Virus record (IMG/VR): IMGVR_UViG_2909309443_000004
Reading direction: 5' to 3' (one strand)
Length of the DNA: 35,146 bases
Source of the DNA: a virus
Lineage: Duplodnaviria > Heunggongvirae > Uroviricota > Caudoviricetes
Part shown: in pieces, positions 5,160 through 31,921 of the stretch
Position numbering within the stretch: the first letter of the stretch is position 1
Layout of the letters: each line of letters begins with the position of its first letter
Position numbers and translations under genes: made by a program
Notes under the pieces: generated by a model
Seen by the model: the letters and a program-made list of their open reading frames with translations, nothing else
The model's database searches: none
Told to the model about the DNA's origin: nothing

Positions 5160-5744
5160 TTATTGTTTGCTTTTTTCGTTCTGGTTGATGACAAATTCAA
5201 TGTAACTTTCGATCTTTGCCTTCTCTGTTTCAGGTAACAATGCGTAGCGCGAGCGGTCATAGTTGATAGTCGCGGGGTCGTGCGGGTGAATCAGTAATTC
5301 ATATCCGTGACGCCCAAATGCGGATGCAACATTCTCCAGGGTGGAAATGGAAACGCTGACCTCATTGTTTAACAGGCGGCTGATTGTTACCTGGGCGACG
5401 CCGGATGCGCGGTGAAGTTTTCCCTGCGTTGAAAGGTCGCGGCTTTCGCTCATCCAGCGTTCCAGGTTGTGAGCCGCCAGTTGACCAATGTCGCTTGGTC
5501 CGACAGGCTGAAAACCTTCCTGAGAAAGCGAGCGATCGATATCAAGCCAGTTACGGGGTTTATTGGCGGCAGCTTCAATTTTTCGCGCAACCTGGTCGCC
5601 GATAACCTTCTTGCCAAGAGCCCAGCGGTTTACCAGATTTGCCTGAGTTCCAAGTTTTTCAGCCATCCGCGTCTGAACACCATTGAATTCACGGTCGATC
5701 AAGTCGTTGAGATTTTGCCTGCGGACGTCCTGGATACTTTTCAT
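5160..5744 (-). CDS. prophage repressor with two HTH domains and no S24 peptidase domain
   Basis: 194 aa. N-terminal XRE-type HTH (TRMAEKLGTQANLVNRWALGKK) and a second HTH (LHRASGVAQVTISRLLNNEVSVS). No Ala-Gly / Ser..Lys autocleavage module. Divergent from a Cro-like gene across a triple operator. Confidence 0.82.
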   Translation of the reverse strand: MKSIQDVRRQNLNDLIDREFNGVQTRMAEKLGTQANLVNRWALGKKVIGDQVARKIEAAANKPRNWLDIDRSLSQEGFQPVGPSDIGQLAAHNLERWMSESRDLSTQGKLHRASGVAQVTISRLLNNEVSVSISTLENVASAFGRHGYELLIHPHDPATINYDRSRYALLPETEKAKIESYIEFVINQNEKSKQ

Positions 5745-8207: not shown

Positions 8208-8210
8208 ATC

Positions 8211-8333: not shown

Positions 8334-8523
8334 ACCATCAGTGCCTGCAACACCAGAAGTTCAGGCAGCACCACAGGAGCAGGATGCCGCCGTTGTTGAT
8401 GCCCGCGACGAAGAAACTCGTCGCCGTCGCGCTGCTGCTGGTCGTAGTTCTACGCTGCTTACCGGTTCTCAGGGCGACACATCAACCGCTAATACCAGCG
8501 GTAAAACGCTGCTTGGTCAGTAA
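8334..8523 (+). pseudogene. 3' fragment of a T7 gp7.3-like small virion protein gene
   Basis: A different frame reads ..PEVQAAPQEQDAAVVDARDEETRRRRAAAGRSSTLLTGSQGDTSTANTSGKTLLGQ* and ends 14 nt before the portal start. No credible start codon or RBS of its own. Confidence 0.45.
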
Positions 8524-8537
8524 CCGGAGTCATTGAA

Positions 8538-12858: not shown

Positions 12859-12888
12859 AAAACTCCTGACCGCATTATAAAAACGGTC

Positions 12889-18733: not shown

Positions 18734-21246
18734 TGCCAGTCGTACCAACAGTATCCGGACGTCAGGTTGAGAGTCGTGGAGTTCAGTCAGCAGGCTTGCA
18801 GACGTTTTCTCAGCAAGGTATTGGTGATGCTTTTGTTCGGGCAGGGACAGAGGCAATTGATGTTTTGGGGCAGGCAAAACAGCGTGCCAATATCGCTCTG
18901 GCTCAGGAGGCATCTCTTAACCTCAGTCAGATAAGAAGCGATCTGCTGAATAATCCTGAAACAGGATTGCTTAACCTGAAAGGGAAAAATGCTATTGGAA
19001 AAGGCCATGAGTATACGCAGCAGTTTGATGCTCAGGTCGAACAACTGGCTATGTCGCTGCCGGATGAACAGGCTCGTAATGCTTTCATGCAGCAGGCGCA
19101 GCAGCAGCGCATTCAGTTCACTACGCAGGCCGGGCGACACGAGATAGGGCAAATTAATGCCTACGAAGAAGGCCAGTTTCAGGCGACACTGCTGAACAAT
19201 GGTAAAAATGCCGCAGCATTGTATGGCGACAACGCCGCATACGTATTGGCTAACAAGCAAACTTTCCAGCAAATTGAGGAGTACGGTGTTGCACATGGCT
19301 GGAGCAACGAGCAAATCCAGGCCAAGAAAATCGAGTTTAAAGAGAAGGTTGCTGATGCTGCATTGTCCCAGTGGTCGGCAAACAATGCGACCGCATTCAT
19401 CCAAAGTAATGGCGAGTTAAGTGATACTGCTGCTGGAGCTCGCCGTGCTGTAGCAGATAGTGACTCTTCCGAGCGTGCCCGTGGCATACGCAACAATAAC
19501 CCAGGAAATCTCGAATACAGCAAAACTAATCCGTGGGTAGGCCAGACCGGTGATGATGGTCGATTTGCTAAATTCGAAACACCTGAACACGGGATTCGTG
19601 CATTAGGGCGGAACCTGATGTCGTATCAGAGGCAGGGTATTGATACCGTCAGCGAGATAATTAATCGCTGGGCACCGCCTGCTGATAAAAATGACACTAT
19701 GTCGTATATCAAAGCAGTGTGCGAACAACTTGGCGTTTCTGCTGATGAGCCTCTCGATGCATCTAATCCTGATACCCTGAAGGCGCTTTGTGCAGCCATT
19801 ATCCATCATGAGAACGGTAGCCAGCCATACAGTGATCAGCAGTTAACTGCTGGTGTCAGTGCAGCACTTGGTTTATCAACAATTCCAACCAACACCAAAC
19901 GCTATACCGGTAATGCAGCATTCGATGCGGCATCTCCTGAGGCGCAGGCAAGTTTTATGCGACAGGCGGATCAACTGCGTCGGCAGCAGCAGGCTGAATA
20001 TAAAACGATGATTGACAGCCAGGTTCGCGATGCGACAGCTGCGTATATGCGTGGCGTTGAATTTCCTAACCCACCTGGTGAGGCTGATTTTATTGCAGCT
20101 TATGGCGTCAGAGAAGGAAACCTGCGATATACCGAGTTCAGAAATACGCAGATCGCCGGACAGTATATAGGCTCTTTCCGCAATATGCCGACAAGCAGCA
20201 TTACAGCATATGTTGAGCAATTACGCCCGGATACTGGTGAGACAGGGGAGGGGTATGCGGCACGCGCAGCTCTTTATGACAACGTTGTTTCGGCTGCAAA
20301 TCAGGTGATAAAGCAGCGGCAGTCGGATCCTGTGCAGTTCTCTCTTTCCTCCGGACAGGCAAAGCCTATCGACATGAGCAATAAGGATAACTTTGGACAG
20401 AGCGTTGCCTTGCGTGCTGCTCAGGTCAGTGACCTTGCTAAGTCATATGGCACTCCACTGACGTTCTTTTCCAAAGACGAGGCCAATCAAATCGGTGTTT
20501 TCTTTCGTGATGCGCCCGTTTCCCAACAGGCTGCATATCTCGATACCATCAGGCAAAGCACTGGTGGTGGGCAGGTGTATATGTCAGCACTACAGCAGAT
20601 CAGTGCCAACGCTCCATCTGCTGCCGTTGCCGGGATACTGATGGATAAGCCTGGTGGTATTTTGGCAGAAAAAAACTGGTTTAATCCGGATGTTTCCGTG
20701 TCTCCTGAAACCGCTGCGCAGACAATTCTTGCTGGCGCTGCGGCTCGTAAAGGTACTGATGATGCGAAAGGTATTCCGATGCCTAAAGATGCTGATCTTC
20801 GCCTTGAGTTTTCTGACATGGTGAAGGATGCATTTGCTGGTGACGCTCATGGGGCATCAATGGCATACGAGATCGCAAAGGATTATTACGCTGGTGTGAT
20901 GGCGAAAAAAGGCGTGGTATCAGGAGAAATTGACAATGATGTCTGGAAACAGGCTGTTAACGTAGCTACAGGTGGCGTGCATGACTATAACGGAATGGGG
21001 AATGTCCTTTTGCCGTGGGGAATGTCTGCAGAGCAATTCGATAAGCAGGTTAATCAGGCTTGGAATGAACAAGTTGTCGGCTCCGGGATAAAAACACCGC
21101 CTGGTCAGTATGGTTTGCAAAGTTACGGCGATAGTCAGTACCTGGTGAAACTTGGCGCTGGTTATCTGCTGAAAGATGATGGTTCTCCCGTTGTTCTTAA
21201 TCTGACACAGAAGCGTCAGAGATTCTCCGGAGATATTCCGCAATGA
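18733..21246 (+). CDS. internal virion / ejection protein with a putative cell-wall-hydrolase-type domain
   Basis: 837 aa from ATG 18733 (TAATG overlap). Conserved block RGIRNNNPGNLEYSKTNPWVGQ..FAKFETPEHGIRALGRNLMSYQRQG..IINRWAP at about 19480-19830. Confidence 0.65.
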   Translation: MPVVPTVSGRQVESRGVQSAGLQTFSQQGIGDAFVRAGTEAIDVLGQAKQRANIALAQEASLNLSQIRSDLLNNPETGLLNLKGKNAIGKGHEYTQQFDAQVEQLAMSLPDEQARNAFMQQAQQQRIQFTTQAGRHEIGQINAYEEGQFQATLLNNGKNAAALYGDNAAYVLANKQTFQQIEEYGVAHGWSNEQIQAKKIEFKEKVADAALSQWSANNATAFIQSNGELSDTAAGARRAVADSDSSERARGIRNNNPGNLEYSKTNPWVGQTGDDGRFAKFETPEHGIRALGRNLMSYQRQGIDTVSEIINRWAPPADKNDTMSYIKAVCEQLGVSADEPLDASNPDTLKALCAAIIHHENGSQPYSDQQLTAGVSAALGLSTIPTNTKRYTGNAAFDAASPEAQASFMRQADQLRRQQQAEYKTMIDSQVRDATAAYMRGVEFPNPPGEADFIAAYGVREGNLRYTEFRNTQIAGQYIGSFRNMPTSSITAYVEQLRPDTGETGEGYAARAALYDNVVSAANQVIKQRQSDPVQFSLSSGQAKPIDMSNKDNFGQSVALRAAQVSDLAKSYGTPLTFFSKDEANQIGVFFRDAPVSQQAAYLDTIRQSTGGGQVYMSALQQISANAPSAAVAGILMDKPGGILAEKNWFNPDVSVSPETAAQTILAGAAARKGTDDAKGIPMPKDADLRLEFSDMVKDAFAGDAHGASMAYEIAKDYYAGVMAKKGVVSGEIDNDVWKQAVNVATGGVHDYNGMGNVLLPWGMSAEQFDKQVNQAWNEQVVGSGIKTPPGQYGLQSYGDSQYLVKLGAGYLLKDDGSPVVLNLTQKRQRFSGDIPQ

Positions 21247-23050: not shown

Positions 23051-25525
23051 ATGAGACAGGAATGTATACAAGCGGTCCAGCAGGCGGCGCAGCGCACGTT
23101 AACGGCGCGAGAAATACAGAACATTGAAGACCGCATTTATCGAAATATGCGCTCCATTGCTCGTGATGACCCGATGTCGTGGCGACAACTTTCCGAATCA
23201 GAACGGTTGTATCGTGCAGCACAATTGGCATCTGAAGAATTACAGCGAGAAGCGGCATTAAAGAAACGTCGTGTGGCCCTCACTATAGCCGCACGTCAGA
23301 GATTGGATAAATTTATCAATAACTATCAAGGGGCTGATGGGAAACTTGGCGCTCTTAACCGTACTATTGCTTTTAATGCAGACGGTAAATCGAATTTCCT
23401 CTCTGTTGAATCCAGAACAAAAGCCACTCGTGATTATGCATTGAGTCAATTGCAGGAGGCATTTGAAGCAGTTGATCCTCGCTTTTTTGGCCTGTTTGAA
23501 GATGAAGCGGGCGTGCGTGACCTGGTATATGAAATGCGAGGGCAAAATACTGGCAATGCTAAAGCAAGAAAAGGTGCTAAGGCGTGGAGAGAAGTGACAG
23601 ATCTACTTCGCCGCCGGTTTAATGATGCTGGTGGGGACATTGGCTATCTCGAAAACTGGGGGATCCCTCAACATCATTCTATGGAAAAGGTTGGGGCGGT
23701 ATCAAAAGATAAATGGGTTAGCGATGTTATAGGTAAGCTGGATCGCAAATATTATACCCGAGCCGATGGACAACTGATGAACGATGCCGAGTTGTCTGCA
23801 TTTCTTGGAGAGGCTTATAACACGATCGCTACTGGTGGGCTGAATAAGCTTACTGACACCGGAATGCGAATTTCCGGAGCACGTGCTAACCGTGGTAATG
23901 CATCACGACAGATACATTTCAAAGATGCAGATTCCTATCTGCAATATCAGCAACTTTATGGCGATCGCTCTCTATGGGAAATCATGGTCGGTCACCTGGA
24001 AGGTATCAGTAAAGATATTGCACTGGTGGAAACATATGGCCCAAACCCCGATCATGTTTTCCGCTCTCTTCTTGATCAGGTGAAGGCAGAAACGGCAACA
24101 GCTAACCCGAGTAAAACCGGTAGCGTCGAGCGTCTGGCGAACAAAACAGAGAACTTGTACAACTTTATTTCCGGAAAAACACAGCCTGTAGCGAATCCCC
24201 ACATCGCGCGATGGTCTGACAATATCCGCAACTGGCTGGTTGCCAGCAGACTCGGATCCGCGTTGCTGTCATCGTTCTCTGATCTTGGAACCATGTATCT
24301 GTCTGCGAAGGTTACCAACCTTCCAATGAACCAGTTATTTCGCAACCAGCTTGAAGCTATTGACCCAACGAACCGTACTGAGCTTGCGCGGGCGCGCCGC
24401 GCTGGCCTGGCGATGGAATCTCTACTTGGCAGCGTTAACCGCTGGGCGATGGATAATATGGGGCCGTCTGTGTCTCGTTGGGCGGCAACGGCGGTAATGC
24501 GTGCCAGTGGGCTTACAGCATGGTCAGATGCGCACAAGCGCGCCTATGGCGTAACCATGATGGGAAGCCTGGGAGAAGTAGTGTCACGGACACCAGACCT
24601 TCGTAGCCTCGATGACTCTGATTTTCGTATCCTGAAAAGTAAAGGGATTACTGACACAGACTGGAGCGTATGGAAGCTGGCGCAACAGGAGGACTGGGGG
24701 AACGGTAATAATACGATGCTGACACCGGAAAGCATTATGCGTATCCCTGATTCAGCAGTTAAACATCTTGGTGAGCCTGAACGCGTGAAATTTGAGGCAA
24801 TGCGTAAACTGCTCGGTGCCGTAACTGAAGAAGTTGATATGGCTGTTATTACACCGGGCGCACGTGAGCAGATGTTCGTAGGGTCTGGTCTTCAGCGTGG
24901 AACATGGAAAGGTGAATTAACGAGAAGTGTTTTCCTGTTTAAATCGTTCCCTATCTCGGTTGTTATGCGTCACTGGTCACGCGCTATGGGTATGCCGTCT
25001 GCTGGTGGGCGTGCAGCATATATAGCAACGTTTTTAGCAAGCACAACCATGCTTGGTGCTCTTTCCATGCAGATTACTGATCTTATTAATGGGAGAAATC
25101 CAAAGGAAATGACCGGTGACCACATGGTTAAATTCTGGATAAATGCATTTTTAAAAGGTGGCGGGGCTGGGTTGTACGGTGATTTTCTTTTCTCTGACCA
25201 CACTAGGTACGGGAGCGGCGCGCTGGCGTCGATGCTTGGCCCGGTAGCTGGTCTGGTTGATGATGTAGTGAAGATTGCTCAGGGCATACCGTTAAATGCT
25301 GTGGAAGGGAAGAGTGAGCAGACTGGTGGTGATCTGGTGAAGCTGGGGAAAGGTTTGATGCCTGGTGCGAATCTCTGGTACTTGAAGGCGGCTCTCGATC
25401 ACATGATCTTTAACCAGATGCAGGAGTATTTTTCACCAGGTTATTTGCGTAAAATGGAGCAACGTTCGAAGAAAGAGTTTAACCAGACATACTGGTGGCG
25501 ACCACAGGATGTCACTCCGCAATAA
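23051..25525 (+). CDS. internal virion / ejection protein (824 aa)
   Basis: Large ORF. The C-terminal third has hydrophobic segments (AAYIATFLASTTMLGALSMQI, FWINAFLKGGGAGLYGDFLF). Last gene of the structural block before the accessory island. Confidence 0.6.
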   Translation: MRQECIQAVQQAAQRTLTAREIQNIEDRIYRNMRSIARDDPMSWRQLSESERLYRAAQLASEELQREAALKKRRVALTIAARQRLDKFINNYQGADGKLGALNRTIAFNADGKSNFLSVESRTKATRDYALSQLQEAFEAVDPRFFGLFEDEAGVRDLVYEMRGQNTGNAKARKGAKAWREVTDLLRRRFNDAGGDIGYLENWGIPQHHSMEKVGAVSKDKWVSDVIGKLDRKYYTRADGQLMNDAELSAFLGEAYNTIATGGLNKLTDTGMRISGARANRGNASRQIHFKDADSYLQYQQLYGDRSLWEIMVGHLEGISKDIALVETYGPNPDHVFRSLLDQVKAETATANPSKTGSVERLANKTENLYNFISGKTQPVANPHIARWSDNIRNWLVASRLGSALLSSFSDLGTMYLSAKVTNLPMNQLFRNQLEAIDPTNRTELARARRAGLAMESLLGSVNRWAMDNMGPSVSRWAATAVMRASGLTAWSDAHKRAYGVTMMGSLGEVVSRTPDLRSLDDSDFRILKSKGITDTDWSVWKLAQQEDWGNGNNTMLTPESIMRIPDSAVKHLGEPERVKFEAMRKLLGAVTEEVDMAVITPGAREQMFVGSGLQRGTWKGELTRSVFLFKSFPISVVMRHWSRAMGMPSAGGRAAYIATFLASTTMLGALSMQITDLINGRNPKEMTGDHMVKFWINAFLKGGGAGLYGDFLFSDHTRYGSGALASMLGPVAGLVDDVVKIAQGIPLNAVEGKSEQTGGDLVKLGKGLMPGANLWYLKAALDHMIFNQMQEYFSPGYLRKMEQRSKKEFNQTYWWRPQDVTPQ

Positions 25526-25534
25526 GGAAGTGTT

Positions 25535-25708
25535 GTGTTTTTAATTATTTTGAGTGTGATAATTTCTGGTGGATTGTTATTTATTGACCGCTACAAATAT
25601 TTTCTTAACCCTCAGACTCAAGCTATTTGCTGGTTCATCTTTGTTGTGCAGGGAGTAGTTCTTGTTGCAAGCCTTATTGAGGGGAGGCCTCTTATTTTTA
25701 CTGGGTAA
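25535..25708 (+). CDS. small membrane protein (57 aa, two predicted TM helices)
   Basis: Hand-translated from GTG 25535, with AAGGAAG 4 nt upstream: VFLIILSVIISGGLLFIDRYKYFLNPQTQAICWFIFVVQGVVLVASLIEGRPLIFTG. Below the ORF-track cutoff. Confidence 0.35.
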   Translation: MFLIILSVIISGGLLFIDRYKYFLNPQTQAICWFIFVVQGVVLVASLIEGRPLIFTG

Positions 25709-25721
25709 ATTAGGTGACTAC

Positions 25722-26018
25722 ATGCAAGCTATAGGATTCATTGTTTATATCGTCGTTGGTCTTTTTCAGTTGGCAGCAATTATGGCTGGGCTTGAATCAT
25801 GGTGGGGATTGCACTGGATAATTGCAGCCCCCATTGCTTTCATCGTGAGCTATATTCCATTTGTTGGAGCGATTGTTGGTATGGTTGGCGCTGTGGATGT
25901 ATGGCGGTGGGAGTGGTGGCAGGCTGGCCTTCTCTTCTTTGGTGGGATCATCTTTGCTATTGTCTGCGGTGGAATGTCATCATTTTTCGAATGGCTAGCA
26001 TTCAGAAAAGGAACGTGA
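25722..26018 (+). CDS. small polytopic membrane protein (98 aa)
   Basis: ATG at 25722 after GGTGA; alternative TTG at 25662 after GGGAG. Three to four hydrophobic helices and a Trp-rich loop (VDVWRWEWWQ). Confidence 0.6.
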   Translation: MQAIGFIVYIVVGLFQLAAIMAGLESWWGLHWIIAAPIAFIVSYIPFVGAIVGMVGAVDVWRWEWWQAGLLFFGGIIFAIVCGGMSSFFEWLAFRKGT

Positions 26019-26026
26019 CATGTCAC

Positions 26027-26051
26027 AGGCCGCTTTCGCGGCCTTGTTTTT
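26027..26051 (+). terminator. rho-independent terminator
   Basis: AGGCCGC-TTTC-GCGGCCT followed by TGTTTTT. Shared 3' region with the convergent minus-strand gene. Confidence 0.7.
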
Positions 26052-26211
26052 AACGAATGCCACCGCCTCCCGGGCGGGAATCCGCAGAACGCCCACCGCA
26101 GCGGGAGCCGTCAGCGGCAGTATCGCTGTCGTGCTGACAACGACCGGCAAAGGCCTGAGTTGAAGCTACCAGAGACAACAAAACGAACAGTGCAGCAAAT
26201 GCTTTTTTCAT
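26050..26211 (-). CDS. small secreted Cys-containing peptide (53 aa)
   Basis: ATG at 26211: MKKAFAALFVLLSLVASTQAFA|GRCQHDSDTAADGSRCGGRSADSRPGGGGIR. Classic signal peptide with an AFA-G cleavage site. The mature part has two Cys and a Gly-rich tail. Confidence 0.55.
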   Translation of the reverse strand: MKKAFAALFVLLSLVASTQAFAGRCQHDSDTAADGSRCGGRSADSRPGGGGIR

Positions 26212-26224
26212 TGTGAAATTTCCA

Positions 26225-26252
26225 TCTATAAGCCACCTCAATGTGGCGTCAA
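26225..26252 (-). promoter_or_regulatory. candidate sigma70 promoter of the secreted-peptide gene
   Basis: Minus strand: TTGACG (complement of 26247-26252), 16-nt spacer, TATAGA (complement of 26225-26230). Confidence 0.45.
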
Positions 26253-26283
26253 TGAGTGTAGCACTGACTTTTGTTTCGTCCAC

Positions 26284-26303
26284 AAAAAATCCCGCAGCGC
26301 GGG
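26284..26303 (-). terminator. rho-independent terminator of the AT-rich two-gene cassette
   Basis: Minus strand directly after the TAA: CCCGC-GCT-GCGGG followed by ATTTTTT. Confidence 0.7.
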
Positions 26304-26304
26304 C

Positions 26305-26748
26305 TTATTCTTCTTCTTCATCATTAAAAAGCGGATTGTTGTTTCCATCTGATGAAAGGAAAGGTATGTGTTCTCTTGAAAATCCAACAATGACAATTTC
26401 ATTATCATTTTTTGCATAATGAATGCATTCATTAGAATGCATTCCGCCAGGGTTGAAATTTAAGTTAATGGTATAATTCTTAAATGTGTTTGGATACCAT
26501 GTTGGCCCACAATGATAATGCCAATAATTCTCTTGCTCATAATTGTCTGAGCCTGGAATTTTATCATGGTTATCATCAACCCACGAGGGCTTGTTTTTTC
26601 CAACAAGCGCCCTTCCATTGGCAACATCCTCTAAAAACCTTTGTATGATTTTTATTTCATCATCAGTAAGGAAAGGTCCGTCTACAGCGAAAGGGGTGTT
26701 GCTTTCCCCATGTAGAAAACTATTAGATATTCTAATGTTAAACTTCAA
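26305..26748 (-). CDS. 147-aa protein of unknown function; weak by-eye resemblance to YafO-family toxins
   Basis: TTG start at 26748 with AGGAG 6-7 nt upstream. Visibly AT-rich. Segments YWHYHCGP..(25 aa)..HSNECIHYAKNDNEIVIVGFSREH recall the YafO pattern H-x-H-L..S-D-x-x-L-V-Y..H. Acidic tail NDEEEE. Confidence 0.55.
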   Translation of the reverse strand: MKFNIRISNSFLHGESNTPFAVDGPFLTDDEIKIIQRFLEDVANGRALVGKNKPSWVDDNHDKIPGSDNYEQENYWHYHCGPTWYPNTFKNYTINLNFNPGGMHSNECIHYAKNDNEIVIVGFSREHIPFLSSDGNNNPLFNDEEEE

Positions 26749-26768
26749 GGAAAACTCCTGATGTGCTT

Positions 26769-26936
26769 CTATTTGGAGCGAAATGCCGCCTTGAAGTCGC
26801 TAAAAGATGTTCCTGTCTGGTAAACCATATCCTTGTCGCGCTCTTTGCTTGCGCGACCAAGCATAACTTTTCCAATGACATCCCAGCATTGCTTGGCTTG
26901 TTCATTGTGCTGAGTACGATTTTTCAACGCTGTCAT
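26769..26936 (-). CDS. 55-aa protein, candidate partner/antitoxin of the 147-aa ORF
   Basis: Hand-translated: MTALKNRTQHNEQAKQCWDVIGKVMLGRASKERDKDMVYQTGTSFSDFKAAFRSK. Strong RBS AAAGGAGG 6 nt before the ATG at 26936. The stop is 20 nt before the TTG start of the next gene. Confidence 0.5.
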   Translation of the reverse strand: MTALKNRTQHNEQAKQCWDVIGKVMLGRASKERDKDMVYQTGTSFSDFKAAFRSK

Positions 26937-26948
26937 ATCGCGCCTCCT

Positions 26949-26992
26949 TTACCTTTAAGGTAATATTACGCGAATCTACATCACATCGCCAA
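26949..26992 (-). promoter_or_regulatory. operator plus candidate promoter of the AT-rich cassette
   Basis: Perfect TTACCTTTAAGGTAA (26949-26963) abuts a minus-strand -10 TAATAT (complement of 26963-26968). TTGGCG lies 18 nt upstream (complement of 26987-26992). Confidence 0.5.
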
Positions 26993-27005
26993 TGATTATT
27001 TTAAA

Positions 27006-27021
27006 GGCACATCCCTGTGCC
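27006..27021 (-). terminator. hairpin after the Bro-N gene
   Basis: Minus strand GGCACA-GGGA-TGTGCC followed by TTTAAAAT. The interrupted T-tract makes it weak. Confidence 0.4.
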
Positions 27022-27029
27022 GCCGCCCG

Positions 27030-27758
27030 TCAGAAGAACCCTGCCTTGTCGTTGATGTACTCCGCGTGGGTCTGGATATCACGCAGGCATTTGCTCACAC
27101 CGACGATGTAGCAGAACATGGTGGTCAGTTCCGCCGCCGCGCCCGATACGTCATGCCCGTCTTCCTGTAACTGGTTCAGCAAATTCATCAGCAGTGAGTT
27201 CTCCGTCAGGCCGAGAACACCAGACGGTGAATGAATCAGGCTACGGTAGCCGGGCTTCAGTGGGGCGCTGTAGGTTTTGTTCTCTATCTTCATTGCCTGC
27301 ATCACTGCTGATGCTGTGGCGTTGGCTACCTGGTCGGCAACCATCTTTATGCGTTCTTCTTGCGGGAGCGAGTTTTTAATGTAACTTCCGGTGCGGCGGA
27401 TCTGAGGAAGAACCTCACCTGTAACCCATTTACGAAAGCGGTATGGGATAGTGCCTGGTGTCACCGCATCGCGGCAGCGGAGGATCAGTGTGTAGAGGCC
27501 TGACTCGTTGATAATATTGGTTTCGCCTTGACGGCCTAAGTTAAATTTAGCCCTTTCATCATCATCAAGAGATTTTATTGACATAGTGGGGTTTGTCAGT
27601 TGAAGAGCTTTAATAACGTCTTTGGCAACAAACCAAGGATTAATCGCAAATCCAACTCTCCTCAGAGTTATAACGCTCAAACGCTTTACACATACTTTGT
27701 GTTGGTGCTGGAGGGCGTTCAAGGGCAGCCATGACTTGCTCCCAAACATCCTCTTCAA
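27030..27758 (-). CDS. Bro-N domain protein with an Ant-like C-terminal domain (start uncertain)
   Basis: Bro-N core NPWFVAKDVIKAL..ESGLYTLILRCRD..RFRKWVTGEVLPQIRRTGSY. The C-terminal 63 aa match the 28868-29125 protein at 28/63 identities (hand alignment). The track start is TTG 27758 and the first ATG is 27749, both inside the upstream RHH gene in another frame. The next in-frame ATG (27584) would cut the Bro-N domain. Confidence 0.7.
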   Translation of the reverse strand: MKRMFGSKSWLPLNALQHQHKVCVKRLSVITLRRVGFAINPWFVAKDVIKALQLTNPTMSIKSLDDDERAKFNLGRQGETNIINESGLYTLILRCRDAVTPGTIPYRFRKWVTGEVLPQIRRTGSYIKNSLPQEERIKMVADQVANATASAVMQAMKIENKTYSAPLKPGYRSLIHSPSGVLGLTENSLLMNLLNQLQEDGHDVSGAAAELTTMFCYIVGVSKCLRDIQTHAEYINDKAGFF

Positions 27759-27924
27759 CGATCAAGCGGCGATGTTCATTAATAACTGTTTCAGCTCTAA
27801 AAGTCGTAGACTCCATTACAAATTGAGATACGGACACTTTAGAAATAACAGCAGCTTCTTCGATACGGCGCTTCGCAGCTTCGGGCAGACGAAACTCGAA
27901 CCGCTCCTTTCTTACTGCGTTCAT
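27640..27924 (-). CDS. DUF1778/TacA-like ribbon-helix-helix protein (antitoxin-type) with no GNAT toxin partner
   Basis: 94 aa from ATG 27924 (AGGAG 5 nt upstream). RFEFRLPEAAKRRIEEAAVISKVSVSQFVMESTTFRAETVINEHRRLIVEEDVWEQVMAALERPPAPT is collinear by eye with TacA/DUF1778 antitoxins over the full length. Confidence 0.65.
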   Translation of the reverse strand: MNAVRKERFEFRLPEAAKRRIEEAAVISKVSVSQFVMESTTFRAETVINEHRRLIVEEDVWEQVMAALERPPAPTQSMCKAFERYNSEESWICD

Positions 27925-27988
27925 AACAACTCCTGAGCTAATGCTCACAGTGGTTTATACCACATAACGATATGCACGGTACGGGAAT

Positions 27989-28003
27989 TTACCGTACAGG
28001 TAA
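27989..28003. promoter_or_regulatory. operator copy upstream of the RHH/Bro-N genes
   Basis: Perfect TTACCGTACAGGTAA, 65 nt upstream of the RHH start. Confidence 0.6.
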
Positions 28004-28081
28004 TGATAAGCGCGAAGAAATATTAAAATCAACCTTATTTGGTTGATTGCGTTTAACGCTTGATCACCTGAAAGCAAGATA

Positions 28082-28096
28082 TTACCTTTAAGGTAA
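28082..28096. promoter_or_regulatory. operator copy upstream of the TM/zinc-ribbon gene
   Basis: Perfect TTACCTTTAAGGTAA, identical to the 26949 copy, 21 nt upstream of the ATG at 28117. Confidence 0.6.
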
Positions 28097-28116
28097 TGTT
28101 ATTGTGAGGAAAAGCA

Positions 28117-28845
28117 ATGGAAGTTTTCTGGATAGTTGTTGGTGTGGTTGCGGTGATTATTTACGTTATCAACCAGAACAAGACTAAGATCTCTGATCGT
28201 ACGGTCGTTAATCATAACAAAACGATAAAGACCGAAGATGGGGAGATAACGATTAATCGTACACAGGTGATAGAACACACCTCTACTCAGTTTCAAAAAA
28301 CTGGAGGTAATGCGCCTAATATTTCCGCACCTCCTGCTTATGATAGTGCGGTAATCCAGACATATTATAAACAGCAGGAGTTAGCAAAAGAGAGGCAACT
28401 GATTCAGCCAAAGCCGTTTACAACTGAGATTCCACCTGGAGTGTCAACGCGTCCGGCATATCATGGAAGATTCCCTGGTGATGACATATCGTCTCAGTCA
28501 TCTAAAAAAGCACCTCAGGCAATATCAGAGCCAGCAAGAATACCTTCTGTATCGCCGCAAAAAGAAGAATCAGCTAACAGAGTTTCAAGTGGTAGCAAGC
28601 AGTGCTTGCGATGCAGAATAAACCTTCCATATGAAAAATTCAGGAAATCGTCAAAAAATCCAGATGGATTGACTAAATGGTGTGCAAGGTGTCTCGATGG
28701 CCCAAAGAATACACGCCATATGAAGTGGTGCCCAATTTGTAATGTCCGCAGAAAACGAACCAGCTTTTACCCTAATAATCAAAATGCGGACGGCTTAATG
28801 GCATGGTGCAAAACGTGCTGGGATGAGCACAAAGCGAAACGATAG
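28117..28845 (+). CDS. membrane-anchored protein with two tandem Cys4 zinc-ribbon repeats
   Basis: 242 aa. N-terminal TM helix (VFWIVVGVVAVIIYVI) and a Pro/Ser/Gln-rich linker. C-terminal repeats CLRCRINLPYEKFRKSSKNPDGLTKWCARC and CPICNVRRKRTSFYPNNQNADGLMAWCKTC (C-x2-C..F..DGL..WC-x2-C). Confidence 0.75.
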   Translation: MEVFWIVVGVVAVIIYVINQNKTKISDRTVVNHNKTIKTEDGEITINRTQVIEHTSTQFQKTGGNAPNISAPPAYDSAVIQTYYKQQELAKERQLIQPKPFTTEIPPGVSTRPAYHGRFPGDDISSQSSKKAPQAISEPARIPSVSPQKEESANRVSSGSKQCLRCRINLPYEKFRKSSKNPDGLTKWCARCLDGPKNTRHMKWCPICNVRRKRTSFYPNNQNADGLMAWCKTCWDEHKAKR

Positions 28846-28861
28846 GCCGCTCTTGCGGCCT
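28844..28861 (+). terminator. hairpin terminator between convergent genes
   Basis: AGGCCGC-TCTT-GCGGCCT followed by TTAAATTT. Overlaps the stop codon of the 28117 gene. Confidence 0.5.
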
Positions 28862-28867
28862 TTAAAT

Positions 28868-29125
28868 TTACCGGGTTTGTTTTCGTAATTGTTCGGCACA
28901 ATAGTCGAGATGTGTTTGCAGATCCCGCATAGACATCTGTGAGCTGGTGACGTAGTTAATCAGTGCAGTCAGTTCGGCAAGTGGGCCATCGACATTAAAT
29001 CCATCCTTATCGAGATCCCGGAGTAATTTCATCAAGTGCGATCCCTCCACCAGTGACCTGACGCCTCCCGGCGTGTGAATCCTTTCGGTAAATCCGTCTT
29101 CCAGTGGATAGTGATACCGCTGCAT
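28868..29125 (-). CDS. ant: small antirepressor-like protein (85 aa) behind a LexA box
   Basis: ATG at 29125 with GGAG 8 nt upstream (the track start at 29143 is a TTG). Paralogous to the C-terminus of the Bro-N protein. The function call rests on the SOS box, the non-cleavable repressor and precedent in related phages. Confidence 0.6.
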   Translation of the reverse strand: MQRYHYPLEDGFTERIHTPGGVRSLVEGSHLMKLLRDLDKDGFNVDGPLAELTALINYVTSSQMSMRDLQTHLDYCAEQLRKQTR

Positions 29126-29144
29126 CTTATCTTCTCCATGCAAT

Positions 29145-29164
29145 AACTGTATATTTATACAGTA
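29145..29164. promoter_or_regulatory. LexA (SOS) box
   Basis: AACTGTATATTTATACAGTA matches the E. coli consensus TACTGTATATATATACAGTA at 18/20, with an intact CTG-N10-CAG. Lies 20-40 nt upstream of the ant start. Confidence 0.8.
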
Positions 29165-29201
29165 TCAAATAATTTGTTTGCTATCCAGCACGTTTTGCAA
29201 A

Positions 29202-29216
29202 TTACCCGAAAGGTAA
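29202..29216. promoter_or_regulatory. operator copy in the ant/tailspike divergent region
   Basis: Perfect TTACCCGAAAGGTAA. Confidence 0.6.
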
Positions 29217-29320
29217 TATCTATTCATATTCACAGCCTTTCTATCCATATGTGGTTTTTCAGGTAATAGAATAACCAGATATGCGGCGCAACGGGTGCTG
29301 CGACTATCTGGAGATTTAAC

Positions 29321-31921
29321 ATGACGGTCTCAACCGAAGTTGACCACAACGAATACACCGGTAACGGCGTTACGACATCATTTCCGTATACCTTCCGTAT
29401 TTTCAAAAAAACCGACCTGGTTGTTCAGGTGTCTGATCTGAACGGGAACGTAACAGAATTGGTTCTGGATACCGGTTATAAGGTAACTGGAGCGGGCACT
29501 TATAGTGGCGGTGAAGTGGTTCTCCCGTCGCCGCTTGCTGCTGGCTGGCGAATTACGATAGAGCGTGTGCTTGATGTGGTGCAGGAGACTGATCTTCGCA
29601 ATCAGGAAAAATTTTTCCCCGAAGTTCATGAAGATGCATTTGACTACCTGACGATGCTGATCCAGCGATGTTTTGGGTGGTTCAGACGTGCATTGATGAA
29701 ACCCTCGTTGCTTGCAAAATATTACGATGCAAAGCAAAACAGAATATCTAACCTTGCTGATCCATCACTTGAGCAGGACGCTGTAAATAATCGCTCAATG
29801 CGTAATTATGTCGATGCTGCAATCGCCGGGGTTGTTGGTGGTTTTGGTTGGTTTATTCAGTATGGTTCTGGAGCAGTATACCGAACGTTCCAGGATAAGA
29901 TGCGGGATGAAGTAAATATTCGTGATTTTGGAGCAGGAGATTCAGGTGAAGTTACAGATGCTATTTTGAAGGCTGTTGCAGCTACTAATGGCACCATTAT
30001 TATCCCGGATGGAAATTATGTTTCTACTCCAACAGTAACGCAGACTCCGAACGTTATGAAATTGCTTTCACGAGCAGAGTTTAGAGGTTCTTTGACCATC
30101 AATCTTCCTGTTGGAACTGTTAACCTATCAGAAAAGACGCTAATCAGATCACAAAATGTTCATAAACTTTCTATTTCTGGTATTACGTATTCAACTACGC
30201 TAACTGGCTTAGTGGGTGTATCTGGTATCCCCAAATCATACCTAGTTACGCTCTCTCTGGCTGATGCTTCAAACGTTTCTGTAGGCGACGTCGTGATGAT
30301 TCGTCACGATATAACGGGGACAGGAGGATATCACATCCATTGTGGCGGATGGGTTGTGACTGCCGTGTCTGGCAAAAATGTTACCGTAAAAAACACCTGC
30401 CACCTGTCTGAATTACCAACGTCAACGATTACAGGCGGAACAGTAGTCATACTAAAAAGTATTCTGAGATATGCCGGATGTGATGGGATTGTGGCTGCAG
30501 GTGCTGGGTGCATTAAGACAATAAACGGTGTCGCAATTGTTGGTGATTATGACCTTGTGGCCGGCACTGGAACTATTGGTGCGCATGGTTTCTCCCTCAC
30601 TACTCCAGACATTACTGTTGCCATCCCAGACCCATCCAACGTGGTTTTTGATGCGTCAGGATGTATAGCAATTGGGCCTGATCTGGCGATCGTTGGGTTC
30701 GGAGAACAGGGGGTCGTGGCTTCAGAAAGATCTGGTGTGGTTTCAAACTTTATATCTTCATGCTCTAACCGCAAGCGCGGTGTATATTCTGAAGGCGCTC
30801 ATATACGCGGTAAATTTATGCTTTGCTCAGGGAATGGTGAGGATGGGATTATTGCTGATATTGGTGGCGCAATACAGGCTAACGGATCAGTTTGCTCTGG
30901 CAATGGGTTGAATGGGTTCTGGTCTTTTAATCATAGTTTTTTGGGGGCACCAGGGGGGATTGCGTGCGGTAACTATACCAATGGTGGTGAATCACGCGGA
31001 CCAGGTGCATTAAATCTGCAAAATGGGAAGAGCTATTTAAACAGGCTAATTGGTGTAACCGCTTCAAATAGCGGTGCAGTTATTTTCACTAACTCAACTG
31101 CCACACAAAATGGCACGGATGGTCTGGTTGCTGTTTACGATGGCTTAATATCTGCCGCCAATGCCAATTCAACGAGCAACGGTCGCTATGGGGTTAACGT
31201 AACTCACGCAAAAATTGTGCTTAAAGGCTCTGGAGGAGTGACTGGTAACACAACGGGAGATTACATCGATAACGGCGAGGGCACAATAATCAAGCCAGAT
31301 GGTACTATGCTGCCGAGGAATGCTGGCCCGCAAAGCATCCTTTCTATTCGTAACGCCAATCTTTCCGGTGCTGATGTCACGGCATCATCAATAGGCGATC
31401 TCACCGTCTCGCAAAGAAACACATCCTCGGGTGCATTAACCCCCCTGTATGTATTCAAATCTGACGGAACCCAGCATCCAGTCAATGACGCCACGCAGAA
31501 CCTTGGCAGGGCAAGCAATCGCTACAATGTTGGTTTCTTCGCTGGCGGAACACAGTCAACTTCAGATGCCACACTTAAAGACCCTATCCGGGAGTTCAAT
31601 CAGGCCGAACTCAATGCAGCAATGCGCATCTCGAAAATGTTTGGATTCTGGACGTGGCTTGATGATGACAGTAAGCGTTTGCATGCAGGGACTACGGTTC
31701 AAGCAGTGTTAGCTGTTCTGGAAGAGGAAGGTCTAGACTGGCGGAGCTATGGATTTATCTGTTTTGATGAGTGGGATGATGAATATACCCCGGTAACCAT
31801 TGAGGTAGATGGCGAAGTCGTTGAAACTGGCGAACTGCAATTAGTACGTGAGTCTGGTTCTGTATGGCAATTACGCGATCAGGAATTTGACAGATTCGTG
31901 ATGCGTGGACTTTCCGAATGA
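29321..31921 (+). CDS. tailspike: conserved N-terminal particle-binding domain, beta-helix enzyme domain, C-terminal S74-type intramolecular chaperone
   Basis: 866 aa. N-terminus TEVDHNEYTGNGVTTSFPYTFRIF. Pectate-lyase-type start DFGAGDSGEVTDAILKAVAATNGTIIIPDGNYV. C-terminus LGRASNRYNVGFFAGGTQSTSDATLKD (S-D-x-x-x-K), with Ser748 at 31562-31564. Confidence 0.85.
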   Translation: MTVSTEVDHNEYTGNGVTTSFPYTFRIFKKTDLVVQVSDLNGNVTELVLDTGYKVTGAGTYSGGEVVLPSPLAAGWRITIERVLDVVQETDLRNQEKFFPEVHEDAFDYLTMLIQRCFGWFRRALMKPSLLAKYYDAKQNRISNLADPSLEQDAVNNRSMRNYVDAAIAGVVGGFGWFIQYGSGAVYRTFQDKMRDEVNIRDFGAGDSGEVTDAILKAVAATNGTIIIPDGNYVSTPTVTQTPNVMKLLSRAEFRGSLTINLPVGTVNLSEKTLIRSQNVHKLSISGITYSTTLTGLVGVSGIPKSYLVTLSLADASNVSVGDVVMIRHDITGTGGYHIHCGGWVVTAVSGKNVTVKNTCHLSELPTSTITGGTVVILKSILRYAGCDGIVAAGAGCIKTINGVAIVGDYDLVAGTGTIGAHGFSLTTPDITVAIPDPSNVVFDASGCIAIGPDLAIVGFGEQGVVASERSGVVSNFISSCSNRKRGVYSEGAHIRGKFMLCSGNGEDGIIADIGGAIQANGSVCSGNGLNGFWSFNHSFLGAPGGIACGNYTNGGESRGPGALNLQNGKSYLNRLIGVTASNSGAVIFTNSTATQNGTDGLVAVYDGLISAANANSTSNGRYGVNVTHAKIVLKGSGGVTGNTTGDYIDNGEGTIIKPDGTMLPRNAGPQSILSIRNANLSGADVTASSIGDLTVSQRNTSSGALTPLYVFKSDGTQHPVNDATQNLGRASNRYNVGFFAGGTQSTSDATLKDPIREFNQAELNAAMRISKMFGFWTWLDDDSKRLHAGTTVQAVLAVLEEEGLDWRSYGFICFDEWDDEYTPVTIEVDGEVVETGELQLVRESGSVWQLRDQEFDRFVMRGLSE

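What the first reader, a model, noticed from the sequence alone, without database searches (positions are those of the whole stretch)
25535..29320. The 3.8-kb island between the ejection genes and the tailspike mirrors the P22 sieA-immI locus but with different parts
The order here is: ejection proteins, small membrane proteins, several independently terminated cassettes, an RHH gene plus Bro-N antirepressor-type gene, a small LexA-controlled Ant, then the tailspike. In P22 the order, as I remember it, is gene 16, sieA, mnt, arc, ant, gene 9 (tailspike). The parallel suggests this junction is a conserved hotspot for exclusion and immunity accessories in short-tailed temperate phages. It would then be a good place to mine related prophages for variable cargo. 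The island holds six transcription units on alternating strands. Four carry repressor operators, and five end at predicted hairpin terminators of varying strength.
Basis: inference. Interest (0 to 1): 0.5.

Follow-up and report, generated by a model that had tools for sequence, protein, structure and literature searches.

The report
Antirepressor region and cargo hotspot, epsilon15-like prophage
The 3.8 kb between the internal virion ("ejection") genes and the tailspike of this defective epsilon15-like E. coli prophage holds the phage's known SOS-triggered antirepressor plus several interchangeable gene slots wired to the main phage repressor; it is a real cargo hotspot that parallels P22's immI region, but it holds no known defence genes.

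Summary
Between the 824-aa virion protein (ends 25525) and the tailspike (starts 29321) lie six transcription units. They carry four copies of one operator, a perfect LexA box and several terminators.

The window is a defective Uetakevirus (epsilon15/phiV10-like) prophage. The operator, TTACC-N5-GGTAA, belongs to the phage's main repressor Rep, not to a private Mnt/Arc-type regulator.

The small LexA-controlled gene is 87% identical to SPC32H Ant, whose structure is solved in complex with Rep (PDB 5D50). That part is already known.

Across 75 loci with near-identical anchors the gap runs from 648 to 5637 bp, with 56 architectures. Only the small Ant is constant. Cargo swaps in defined slots between a backbone promoter-operator and a backbone terminator.

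None of 28 cargo families matches PADLOC. One cargo pair here (55 aa + 147 aa) is a RelE-fold, toxin-antitoxin-like module.

In 55 of 57 relatives that have it, the second, larger antirepressor is preceded by an isrK/C4 antisense-RNA leader (P1 immI type). Here that leader was replaced, at two microhomologies, by a tacA antitoxin gene with its own palindrome. This replacement occurs in one E. coli lineage only.

The P22 parallel is functional and positional, not homologous.

The parts
5160..5744 (-). Rep, the main prophage repressor (194 aa, HTH). It lies outside the island but controls it.
   Evidence: Matches PDB 5D50_A 'Repressor' of SPC32H, E 3.5e-42. It is flanked by operator copies at 5026, 5088, 5800 and 5848.
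23051..25525 (+). Left anchor: 824-aa virion protein (epsilon15 gp17 / phiV10p20 homolog), presumed internal/ejection protein.
   Evidence: Its C-terminal 299 aa are at least 92% identical in 80 IMG/VR loci.
25535..26018 (+). Slot 1: m57 (25535-25708) and m98 (25722-26018), two small membrane proteins. No promoter or operator separates them from the late operon.
   Evidence: phrog_3075, function unknown. Present in 37 of 75 loci. The alternatives in this slot are m46, lipo137 and m62+lipo138.
26027..26044 (.). Terminator hairpin T1 (AGGCCGCTTTCGCGGCCT). It is part of the backbone and a recombination boundary.
   Evidence: Present in 61 of 73 relatives, and HSP ends cluster here. The same hairpin lies between the m46 gene and ant in SPC32H.
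26050..26211 (-). Slot 2: s53, a 53-aa secreted or membrane-anchored peptide. It has a TTGACG-16-TATAGA promoter-like site that I read by eye, and no Rep operator.
   Evidence: phrog_14503 'membrane associated protein', moron category. Present in 40 of 75 loci.
26291..26303 (-). Terminator at the end of slot 3 (CCCGCGCTGCGGG followed by a T-run). Part of the backbone.
   Evidence: Homology with relatives that carry other cargo resumes here.
26305..26748 (-). Slot 3 cargo: u147, a predicted RelE/ParE-fold toxin.
26769..26936 (-). Slot 3 cargo: u55, the small partner of u147 (putative antitoxin).
   Evidence: It always co-occurs with u147 (11 of 11 loci). It is 40% identical to the gene upstream of the u147 homolog in a chromosomal two-gene island of Erwinia persicina.
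26949..26963 (.). Rep operator O1. It abuts a TAATAT -10-like hexamer of the slot 3 promoter (my reading).
   Evidence: The upstream 50 nt plus the operator are identical in front of five different cargos, which diverge right after GGTAA.
27030..27680 (-). Slot 4: the 'big Ant', a Bro-N domain lacking about its first 25 codons plus a C-terminal AntC domain (about 27048-27278).
   Evidence: Pfam Bro-N 6.7e-18. The C-terminal part is 41% identical to the small Ant and matches 5D50_E at 9.5e-14. The breakpoint was located.
27640..27924 (-). Orphan TacA/AtaR/KacA-family RHH antitoxin gene, captured from a tacA-GNAT operon.
   Evidence: Pfam TacA1 2.8e-19. PDB 6AJM_C (DUF1778 domain protein) 1.8e-19 and 5ZGN KacA. 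An 84%-identical relative sits in a tacA-GNAT operon. There is no GNAT gene here.
27645..27988 (-). The 344-bp replacement segment that takes the place of the isrK/C4 leader and the 5' end of ant.
   Evidence: It is covered by 0 of 73 relatives.
27979..27997 (.). Palindrome GTACGG-N7-CCGTAC, inherited from the tacAT promoter and overlapping Rep operator O2.
   Evidence: Alignment with L096.
27989..28003 (.). Rep operator O2, just downstream of the predicted TTGATT-18-TATCAT promoter of the tacA-Bro operon.
28082..28096 (.). Rep operator O3, in front of zn242.
28117..28845 (+). Slot 5 cargo: zn242, with an N-terminal TM helix, a linker and two CxxC...CxxC zinc ribbons.
   Evidence: phrog_6762. 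The C-terminal repeats match the zinc-ribbon parts of the endonuclease VII and Lar-like PHROGs; Pfam Stc1 is below cutoff. Present in 19 of 75 loci; the alternative cargo is u171+YafO_a.
28844..28861 (.). Terminator hairpin T2, a second copy of T1 (89% identical).
   Evidence: HSP ends cluster at 28825-28870.
28868..29125 (-). Invariant small antirepressor Ant (85 aa).
   Evidence: 87% identical to SPC32H Ant. PDB 5D50_E, E 3.5e-46. Present in 75 of 75 loci.
29147..29162 (.). LexA box CTGTATATTTATACAG in the ant promoter.
   Evidence: An exact box is present in 74 of 75 loci and in SPC32H.
29202..29216 (.). Rep operator O4, upstream of ant.
   Evidence: The homologous site is annotated as a repressor binding site in epsilon15 (19895-19911).
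29321..31921 (+). Right anchor: tailspike. The N-terminal anchor domain is conserved and the receptor-binding part is hypervariable.
   Evidence: The receptor-binding part is covered by 0 of 28 relatives.

Best explanation
The interval is the secondary immunity (antirepressor) region of an epsilon15/phiV10-like temperate podovirus. It is combined with a multi-slot hotspot for accessory genes.

The fixed core. The core is the small Ant gene next to the tailspike. LexA represses it, and a Rep operator sits upstream of it. After DNA damage Ant is made and is expected to bind and inactivate Rep, as in SPC32H.

The regulon. Rep operators of the same sequence lie over three further island promoters. 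Inactivating Rep should therefore also switch on:
(i) a second, larger antirepressor whose C-terminal domain is homologous to Ant (a positive-feedback arm);
(ii) the cargo of slot 3, here a RelE-fold toxin with a small partner;
(iii) the cargo of slot 5, here a membrane-anchored zinc-ribbon protein.
These genes are predicted to be silent in the lysogen and expressed early after infection or induction.

Units without an operator. Slot 1 (small membrane proteins or lipoproteins) has no operator and continues the late operon. s53 has its own promoter and is the only unit likely to be on in a lysogen.

How cargo turns over. Exchange happens by recombination at short conserved backbone elements: the terminator hairpins and the downstream edge of the operator.

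The window-specific change. In this lineage the usual isrK/C4 antisense-RNA leader of the big Ant was replaced, at two microhomologies, by a tacA antitoxin gene together with its palindromic operator. This gives an RHH-plus-Ant operon that resembles P22 arc-ant.

Shown versus inferred. Shown: sequence identities, operator and LexA sites, slot structure, turnover, the fold of u147, and the recombination junctions. Inferred: Rep binding at the island sites, the timing of expression, toxin activity, and any regulatory role of TacA.
For: Identity of the phage: megablast to phiV10, HEMP4, SPC32H and others; RefSeq context.

Ant and Rep. The review PMC7380047 states that after LexA cleavage an Ant inhibits the repressor, citing Kim & Ryu 2013.

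Operator: 11 sites against 0.62 expected. The motif is identical to the 'repressor' protein_bind features of the epsilon15 record, including the one upstream of gp19. It clusters around rep in all three genomes examined.

Hotspot. Other genera.

Slot boundaries.

Second antirepressor. Overexpression of the Bro-N 'ORF4 anti-repressor' of the Uetakevirus ZX5 lowered prophage titre from 10^9 to 10^6 (PMC9782041).

isrK/C4 leader.

tacA capture.

u55-u147.
Against: There are no expression or binding data for this phage, and the primary SPC32H paper could not be read.

The prophage is defective: an IS66-family element sits in the capsid gene, there is no terminase, and a tail gene is split. Regulation may be vestigial here.

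The tacA variant is confined to 15 of 5426 E. coli genomes, all at least 99.6% identical. It occurs in no sequenced phage. The Bro-N gene lost its native start, so the chimera may be non-functional.

u147 has no sequence-level link to known toxin families.

A toxin-antitoxin pair held off by a phage repressor is unusual, and its purpose is unexplained.
Confidence: 0.75

Rival explanations
1. The island is a prophage-borne anti-phage defence and exclusion island, expressed in the lysogen to protect the host. It would be comparable to the P2/P4 hotspots or to P22 sieA.
For: The cargo includes RelE-fold and YafO-type toxin cassettes, lipoproteins and membrane proteins. These types occur in abortive-infection and exclusion systems. 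s53 and slot 1 lack Rep operators. The position parallels P22 sieA.
Against: None of 28 cargo families credibly hits PADLOC; the single hit is a chance-level Cas8b match at E 0.009. NCBIfam gives none. Four of the six units have the Rep operator over or next to the promoter, which predicts silence in the lysogen. There is no similarity to SieA.
Confidence: 0.15
2. The tacA-Bro junction is a neutral accident of illegitimate recombination in an already dead prophage. TacA regulates nothing, the truncated Bro-N/AntC gene is not translated, and the resemblance to arc-ant is coincidental.
For: The junction occurs in a single lineage only and is absent from all phage records. The prophage lacks terminase in both strains examined and accumulates IS elements. 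The junctions lie at 10-13 bp microhomologies. The Bro-N reading frame lost its start and first beta-strand, and the tacT start frame is out of frame with it (my reading).
Against: The tacA ORF and its palindrome are intact, and the C-terminal toxin-binding region is retained. The replacement is almost length-neutral (344 versus 343 bp) and keeps the promoter and Rep operator. All 15 copies keep the ORFs.
Confidence: 0.45
3. The island is homologous by descent to P22 immI/sieA: one ancestral locus that diverged.
For: The position between internal-protein genes and the tailspike is the same. TL-2011b carries arc-sar-ant at this junction. P22-like loci sometimes carry Bro-N type genes (11 of 74). 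There is a marginal AntC / P22 Ant C-terminal similarity, E 0.035.
Against: The window's proteins show no similarity to SieA or Arc. The RHH belongs to a different Pfam family. Control is by Rep and LexA rather than by Mnt and Arc. The cassettes are evidently mobile, so shared content is better explained by transfer.
Confidence: 0.1

Closest known systems
SPC32H/epsilon15 Rep-Ant antirepression switch (Kim & Ryu 2013, J Virol 87:11775; PDB 5D50)
   Same: Ant is 87% identical and sits in the same position next to the tailspike. The LexA box and the adjacent Rep operator are the same. Rep is homologous.
   Different: SPC32H and epsilon15 have the minimal island: one small membrane gene plus ant, about 650 bp. 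This window has four extra units, three of them with additional Rep operators.
P22 immI region with sieA (gene 16 - sieA - mnt - arc - sar - ant - gene 9)
   Same: The position is the same, it has an antirepressor function, and an RHH gene is co-transcribed upstream of an Ant gene. Terminated cassettes lie on both strands. The junction is variable in both phage groups.
   Different: There is no sequence homology to SieA or Arc. The operators belong to the main repressor. An extra LexA-controlled Ant is present. There is no sar RNA in the window.
P1/P7 immI (c4 antisense RNA - icd - ant) and Gifsy-1 isrK-anrP
   Same: 55 of 57 relatives that have a big Ant carry Rfam isrK plus C4 (with a sub-threshold hit to the a1/b1 targets model) as the leader of the big Ant gene.
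   Different: In this window exactly that leader is missing and is replaced by tacA.
TacA-TacT / AtaR-AtaT / KacA-KacT type II toxin-antitoxin systems
   Same: The RHH protein is a full-length DUF1778 antitoxin. The palindrome of the donor promoter is retained.
   Different: There is no GNAT toxin downstream or elsewhere in complete E. coli genomes at the DNA level. The downstream gene is an antirepressor.
RelE/ParE-superfamily type II TA modules (including the YafO cassettes found in the same slot)
   Same: u147 has the fold. It has a small upstream partner and is a mobile two-gene unit.
   Different: There is no Pfam or profile match. It carries about 50 extra residues. Its promoter is supplied by the phage and gated by Rep instead of being autoregulated.
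Morons and defence hotspots of temperate phages (HK97 morons; P2/P4 hotspots)
   Same: Variable cargo sits between conserved anchor genes.
   Different: Most cargo here is promoterless and plugs into a backbone promoter-operator and terminator. No known defence family is present.

Membership tests
SPC32H-type Rep/Ant switch | Small Ant protein homologous to SPC32H Ant | tested here: met
   87% identity; PDB 5D50_E, E 3.5e-46.
SPC32H-type Rep/Ant switch | Cognate Rep repressor | tested here: met
   The protein encoded at window 5160-5744 matches 5D50_A, E 3.5e-42.
SPC32H-type Rep/Ant switch | LexA box in the ant promoter | tested here: met
   CTGTATATTTATACAG at 29147-29162. It is conserved in SPC32H and in 74 of 75 loci.
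SPC32H-type Rep/Ant switch | Ant binds and inactivates Rep | not testable with these tools
   This needs biochemistry. It is inferred from homology to the 5D50 complex.
P22 immI / sieA | Located between the ejection-protein genes and the tailspike | tested here: met
P22 immI / sieA | Arc/Mnt-family repressors with private operators | tested here: not met
   The RHH is Pfam TacA1. It gives no alignment to Arc. The operators are Rep's.
P22 immI / sieA | P22-type Ant (P22_AR_N domain) | tested here: not met
   The window's Ant is Bro-N + AntC, with only E 0.035 to P22 Ant. The feature is met in the relatives TL-2011b and L005.
P22 immI / sieA | sar antisense RNA | tested here: not met
   No Rfam hit in the island at E <= 0.1. 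sar was found in TL-2011b and P22.
P22 immI / sieA | SieA homolog | tested here: not met
   m98 against SieA gives E 19. There is no Pfam or PHROG annotation.
P1 immI (C4 RNA-controlled ant) | C4 antisense RNA in the ant leader | tested here: not met
   Absent from the window. Present in 55 of 57 relatives that have a big Ant.
TacAT/AtaRT/KacAT type II TA | DUF1778 RHH antitoxin | tested here: met
   Pfam TacA1 2.8e-19; PDB 6AJM_C 1.8e-19.
TacAT/AtaRT/KacAT type II TA | Adjacent GNAT acetyltransferase toxin | tested here: not met
   The downstream gene is Bro-N. The nearest homolog does have a GNAT gene. No tacT-like DNA occurs in complete E. coli genomes.
RelE/ParE-superfamily TA (u55-u147) | RelE-like toxin fold | tested here: met
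RelE/ParE-superfamily TA (u55-u147) | Conserved small partner gene directly upstream | tested here: met
   11 of 11 loci. In Erwinia the partner is 40% identical. In Klebsiella prophages the partner has a similar C-terminus.
RelE/ParE-superfamily TA (u55-u147) | Sequence-family membership (Pfam RelE/YafO and related) | tested here: not met
   No Pfam hit. hhalign against the YafO cargo gives probability 0.8%.
RelE/ParE-superfamily TA (u55-u147) | Toxicity and neutralisation | not testable with these tools
   Needs expression assays.
Known anti-phage defence systems (PADLOC v2) | A match to any defence-system protein model | tested here: not met
   28 cargo representatives gave only one chance-level hit, E 0.009.

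The most novel reading that the evidence does not exclude
The Rep-gated slots form a phage-side arsenal that fires only on derepression. Interchangeable RelE/YafO-type toxin pairs, membrane proteins and a zinc-ribbon protein would act early in infection or induction, against host defences or competing phages. On this reading u55-u147 is a new toxin-antitoxin family. In this lineage a TA antitoxin (TacA), with its operator, would have been exapted as an Arc-like regulator of an antirepressor, in place of a C4 antisense RNA.
Probability: 0.25. Interest if true: 0.65.

Novelty: new variant of a known kind. Interest (0 to 1): 0.42.

Why it matters
The region gives a well-delimited place to mine. 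Two conserved anchors are present in roughly a tenth of complete E. coli genomes (561 of 5426 match part of the island). More than two dozen mostly uncharacterised cargo families sit there, and each is plugged into a promoter whose regulator, Rep, is known and structurally solved.

The region also shows several different control devices governing antirepressor genes at one locus in close relatives: an Arc/sar pair, an isrK/C4 antisense-RNA leader, a captured TA antitoxin, and LexA with Rep on the small Ant. This is a compact natural experiment in regulator replacement.

The Ant/Rep/LexA core itself is already known, so the gain is incremental rather than conceptual.

Tried and rejected
- The first operator search used N6 spacing and missed the sites. 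The spacing is N5.
- PADLOC and NCBIfam scans of 28 cargo representatives gave nothing usable.
- Pfam and PHROGs named only Bro-N, TacA1, DUF4760, YafO_toxin, DUF2335 and P22_AR_N. All other PHROG families are 'unknown function'.
- hhalign of the u147 family against the YafO-like cargo was not significant. The link to toxins rests on fold only.
- I suspected a tRNA-like element in the leader of the big Ant of relatives. ARAGORN found none; Rfam showed it is isrK + C4.
- The primary SPC32H paper is not held. I relied on the GenBank annotation, PDB 5D50 and citing papers, plus my own recollection for the details.
- A covariation test (different Rep implies a different operator) was not possible. 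The window, SPC32H and epsilon15 all use the same half-sites.
- The donor tacAT was sought in E. coli genomes and in phage records and not found.
- Literature searches found no description of this junction as a hotspot. The library is partial.
- zn242, s53 and the slot 1 proteins were not modelled. Their functions remain guesses.

Full report
**What the window is.** The 35-kb window is almost a whole prophage of the epsilon15/phiV10 type (genus Uetakevirus). It is 100% identical to E. coli strain E8 and lies next to yfgI. The prophage is defective. An IS66-family element (ISEc23) splits the major capsid gene, a tail gene is split into pseudogenes, and no terminase genes lie between a DUF1064 fragment and the portal gene. 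A sister strain (O6:H16 M9682-C1) carries the same prophage at the same site with other lesions, including IS100 in the tailspike.

**The observation.** The interval 25535-29320 is exactly the gap between the 824-aa virion protein (epsilon15 gp17 homolog) and the tailspike. It contains:
- m57 and m98 (+ strand), small hydrophobic proteins;
- s53 (-);
- u55 and u147 (-);
- a TacA-family RHH gene overlapping a Bro-N gene (-);
- zn242 (+), which has a TM helix and two zinc ribbons;
- an 85-aa gene (-).

These make six transcription units. The strand pattern is + - - - + -, so they do not strictly alternate. The repeated operator is TTACC-N5-GGTAA. It has 11 matches in the window against 0.62 expected, and four of them are in the island, at 26949, 27989, 28082 and 29202. 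A perfect LexA box lies at 29147-29162. Terminator-like hairpins are over-represented, 14 against 3.8 +/- 1.8. Three are clear gene-end terminators and the others are weak.

**Whose operator it is.** The same motif flanks the 194-aa HTH repressor gene (5160-5744) at 5026, 5088, 5800 and 5848. In the epsilon15 RefSeq record, seven ATTACC-N5-GGTAAT sites are annotated as repressor binding sites, and one of them lies upstream of gp19. SPC32H has ten exact sites in the same layout. The window's repressor matches PDB 5D50 chain A ('Repressor', SPC32H) at E 3.5e-42. The island promoters therefore carry the main repressor's operator, not a private Mnt/Arc-type one. By my reading of the sequence, the operator abuts or overlaps the -10 region at the u55 and tacA promoters. 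That predicts repression in the lysogen.

**The invariant core is already known.** The 85-aa protein is 87% identical to SPC32H_020, annotated as ant, which occupies the same position. It matches 5D50 chain E ('Anti-repressor protein') at E 3.5e-46. The LexA box and the adjacent Rep operator are conserved in SPC32H. A review cites Kim & Ryu 2013 for the mechanism: LexA cleavage allows synthesis of an Ant that inhibits the repressor by protein-protein contact (PMC7380047). I could not read the primary paper.

**The hotspot test.**
- I fetched 80 IMG/VR loci whose gp17-like C-terminus is at least 92% identical. With the E8 copy and phiV10, 75 loci have both anchors.
- The gap ranges from 648 to 5637 bp, and there are 56 distinct architectures.
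- Only the small Ant (75 of 75) and its LexA box (74 of 75) are constant.
- Among 73 relatives, the window's segments occur as follows: m57/m98 in 35, s53 in about 35-40, u55-u147 in 9, the C-terminal part of the big Ant in 55, zn242 in 17, and the tacA segment in 0.
- In 28 loci with full 10-kb flanks, the upstream virion genes are present in 26-28 and the lysis genes in 23-25. The island drops to 3-15, and the tailspike receptor-binding part drops to 0.
- The same anchors, with different cargo, occur in Kluyvera, Citrobacter, Klebsiella, Sodalis and Pectobacterium.
- In E. coli, 561 of 5426 complete genomes match part of the island, but only 22 cover at least 80% of it.

The refutation criterion, an invariant gene set, is clearly not met.

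**Slot structure.**
- Slot 1 follows gp17 on the + strand with no intervening terminator. It holds m46, m57+m98, lipo137 or m62+lipo138 (13, 37, 20 and 5 loci), followed by hairpin T.
- Slot 2 is s53 (40 loci).
- Slot 3 (- strand) holds one of: u55-u147; three different small-gene + YafO-type cassettes; u72-u125; u113-DUF2335; u210a; u211b; mem287 (with or without mem167); mem110; DUF4760; or nothing.
- Slot 4 is a large antirepressor.
- Slot 5 (+ strand) holds zn242, u171-YafO_a or nothing, followed by a second copy of hairpin T.
- Slot 6 is ant.

HSP endpoints cluster at these boundaries and at the Bro-N/AntC domain border. Upstream of five different slot 3 cargos, the 50 nt plus the operator are identical, and the sequences diverge immediately after GGTAA. 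Downstream, homology resumes at the terminator 26291-26303. Most cargo is therefore promoterless and sits between a backbone promoter-operator and a backbone terminator. This differs from classical morons, which bring their own signals.

**Cargo content.** Of 28 representative proteins, none matches PADLOC credibly (one hit at E 0.009) and none matches NCBIfam. Pfam names only Bro-N, TacA1, DUF4760, YafO_toxin, DUF2335 and P22_AR_N. All other PHROG families are of unknown function. Enrichment of known defence families is therefore not supported.

For the window's own slot 3 cargo:
- The u147 family has 36 clusters, all annotated hypothetical.
- It gave a confident model, pLDDT 90.3.
- There is no profile-level link to the YafO cargo.
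- u55 always accompanies u147.
- The pair also occurs as an isolated chromosomal two-gene unit in Erwinia persicina, where the partner is 40% identical to u55 (E 2e-12).
- It also occurs in the nin region of Klebsiella lambdoid prophages.

I conclude that u55-u147 is a toxin-antitoxin-like pair with a RelE-fold toxin. Activity is inferred, not shown.

**The second antirepressor and its regulators.** The Bro-N protein's C-terminal 78 residues are 41% identical to the small Ant and match 5D50_E at 9.5e-14. In the Uetakevirus ZX5, overexpressing the Bro-N 'ORF4 anti-repressor' lowered prophage titre about 1000-fold (PMC9782041). In relatives, the leader of this gene carries Rfam isrK (67-77 bits) and C4 antisense RNA (78 bits), both above gathering score; a hit to the a1/b1 targets model falls below its threshold. 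This leader is present in 55 of the 57 loci that have the big Ant. That is the P1 immI type of control. TL-2011b additionally carries an Arc-like gene, a sar RNA (44.8 bits) and an Ant whose N-terminus is 39% identical to P22 Ant and whose C-terminus is the same AntC domain. The window island has no Rfam hit.

**What happened in this window.** A 344-bp segment (27645-27988) replaces 343 bp comprising isrK, C4 and about the first 25 codons of the Bro-N gene.
- The segment carries a complete DUF1778 antitoxin gene: Pfam TacA1 at 2.8e-19, and PDB matches to a DUF1778 protein (6AJM) and KacA.
- An 84%-identical relative sits in a canonical tacA-GNAT operon.
- Alignment shows both junctions at microhomologies. 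The 5' junction is TGTACGGTAA, where the right half of the Rep operator coincides with the left arm of the donor's palindrome GTACGG-N7-CCGTAC. That palindrome is retained at 27979-27997. The 3' junction is AATCCTGGTTT, at the tacA stop.
- The result is an RHH gene with its own palindrome, under a Rep-controlled promoter, upstream of an antirepressor gene. In form this is the P22 arc-ant arrangement.

The caveats are strong.
- The Bro-N frame lost its start. PGAP proposes a TTG inside tacA, and an in-frame ATG lies about 60 nt downstream of the tacA stop.
- The variant exists in only 15 of 5426 genomes, all at least 99.6% identical and including O6:H16 strains.
- It occurs in no phage record.
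- No tacT-like DNA exists in complete E. coli genomes.
- The prophage was probably already dead.

I give about even odds that the chimera is functional.

**Comparison with P22.** The remembered P22 order is correct. The gene16-gene9 gap in 74 P22-like loci is also variable: 79-4443 bp, with sieA in 28 loci, ant in 30, Bro-N type genes in 11, and none of the P22 genes in 14. The window's proteins show no similarity to SieA or Arc, and only E 0.035 to the C-terminus of P22 Ant. The parallel is therefore positional and functional, with occasional cassette exchange. It is not common descent.

**Verdict.** The core switch (LexA, Ant, Rep, and the Rep operator upstream of ant) is already known. As far as a partial literature search shows, the following appear new:
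- the multi-slot, Rep-gated cargo architecture of the E. coli Uetakevirus junction;
- the alternation of isrK/C4 RNA, Arc/sar and TacA in front of AntC-domain antirepressors;
- the RelE-fold u55-u147 pair.

This is a new variant of a known kind, of moderate interest.

Noticed in passing
window 12086-14502 and surroundings (8200-8540, 16562-18733): The prophage is defective. ISEc23 (IS66 family: tnpA, tnpB, transposase) interrupts the major capsid gene. A tail gene is split into two pseudogenes. No terminase genes lie between a DUF1064 fragment and the portal gene.
   Followed up: partly
L106 (E. coli O6:H16 M9682-C1), whole locus: The same prophage sits at the same yfgI-adjacent site, with independent lesions: a deletion in the cement/tail genes and IS100 in the tailspike. 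This points to vertical inheritance of a dead prophage in one lineage.
   Followed up: partly
window 8131-8145 and 8193-8207: Two further exact Rep operators lie just upstream of the virion gene block. Equivalent pairs exist in epsilon15 (35907, 35969) and SPC32H (35972, 36034). Rep may also gate a promoter reading into the late region.
   Followed up: no
window 27500 (within the Bro-N gene): A cluster of 35 homology endpoints falls at the border between the Bro-N domain and the AntC domain. The AntC domain is also found fused to a P22_AR_N-type N-terminus in TL-2011b. This looks like domain shuffling among antirepressors.
   Followed up: partly
window 26027-26044 and 28844-28861: The same GC-rich terminator hairpin occurs twice (89% identical) and brackets all the variable cargo. 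SPC32H has a single copy between its m46 gene and ant. This suggests cargo entered at or next to this hairpin.
   Followed up: partly
L005 (IMG/VR), inter-anchor region of 5637 bp: This is the largest island seen. It contains an inverted duplication with two Bro-N/AntC genes in opposite orientation, a P22_AR_N gene and DUF4760.
   Followed up: no
L107-L109 (Erwinia persicina chromosome) and L110-L112 (Klebsiella lambdoid prophages): The u55-u147 type pair occurs outside Uetakeviruses. In Erwinia it is an isolated two-gene unit downstream of dnaE/accA-type (DNA_pol3_alpha, ACCA Pfam) housekeeping genes. In Klebsiella prophages it lies in the nin region, with a longer partner.
   Followed up: partly
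window 34766-35146 (yfgH) in strain E8: RefSeq marks the host lipoprotein gene yfgH, next to the prophage end, as a pseudogene with an internal stop in this strain.
   Followed up: no
L091-L093 (Sodalis, Pectobacterium): Distant relatives keep both anchors 2-2.5 kb apart, but no Ant homolog was detected at E 1e-4. The 'invariant' small Ant may not be universal outside the E. coli/Salmonella group.
   Followed up: no
window 29321-31921: The tailspike receptor-binding part (about 29800-31900) is shared with none of 28 close relatives. At the nucleotide level it is 98.6% identical to Sashavirus 536P12 and about 87% identical to tail fibre genes of large Justusliebigvirus/Phapecoctavirus phages.
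   Followed up: no
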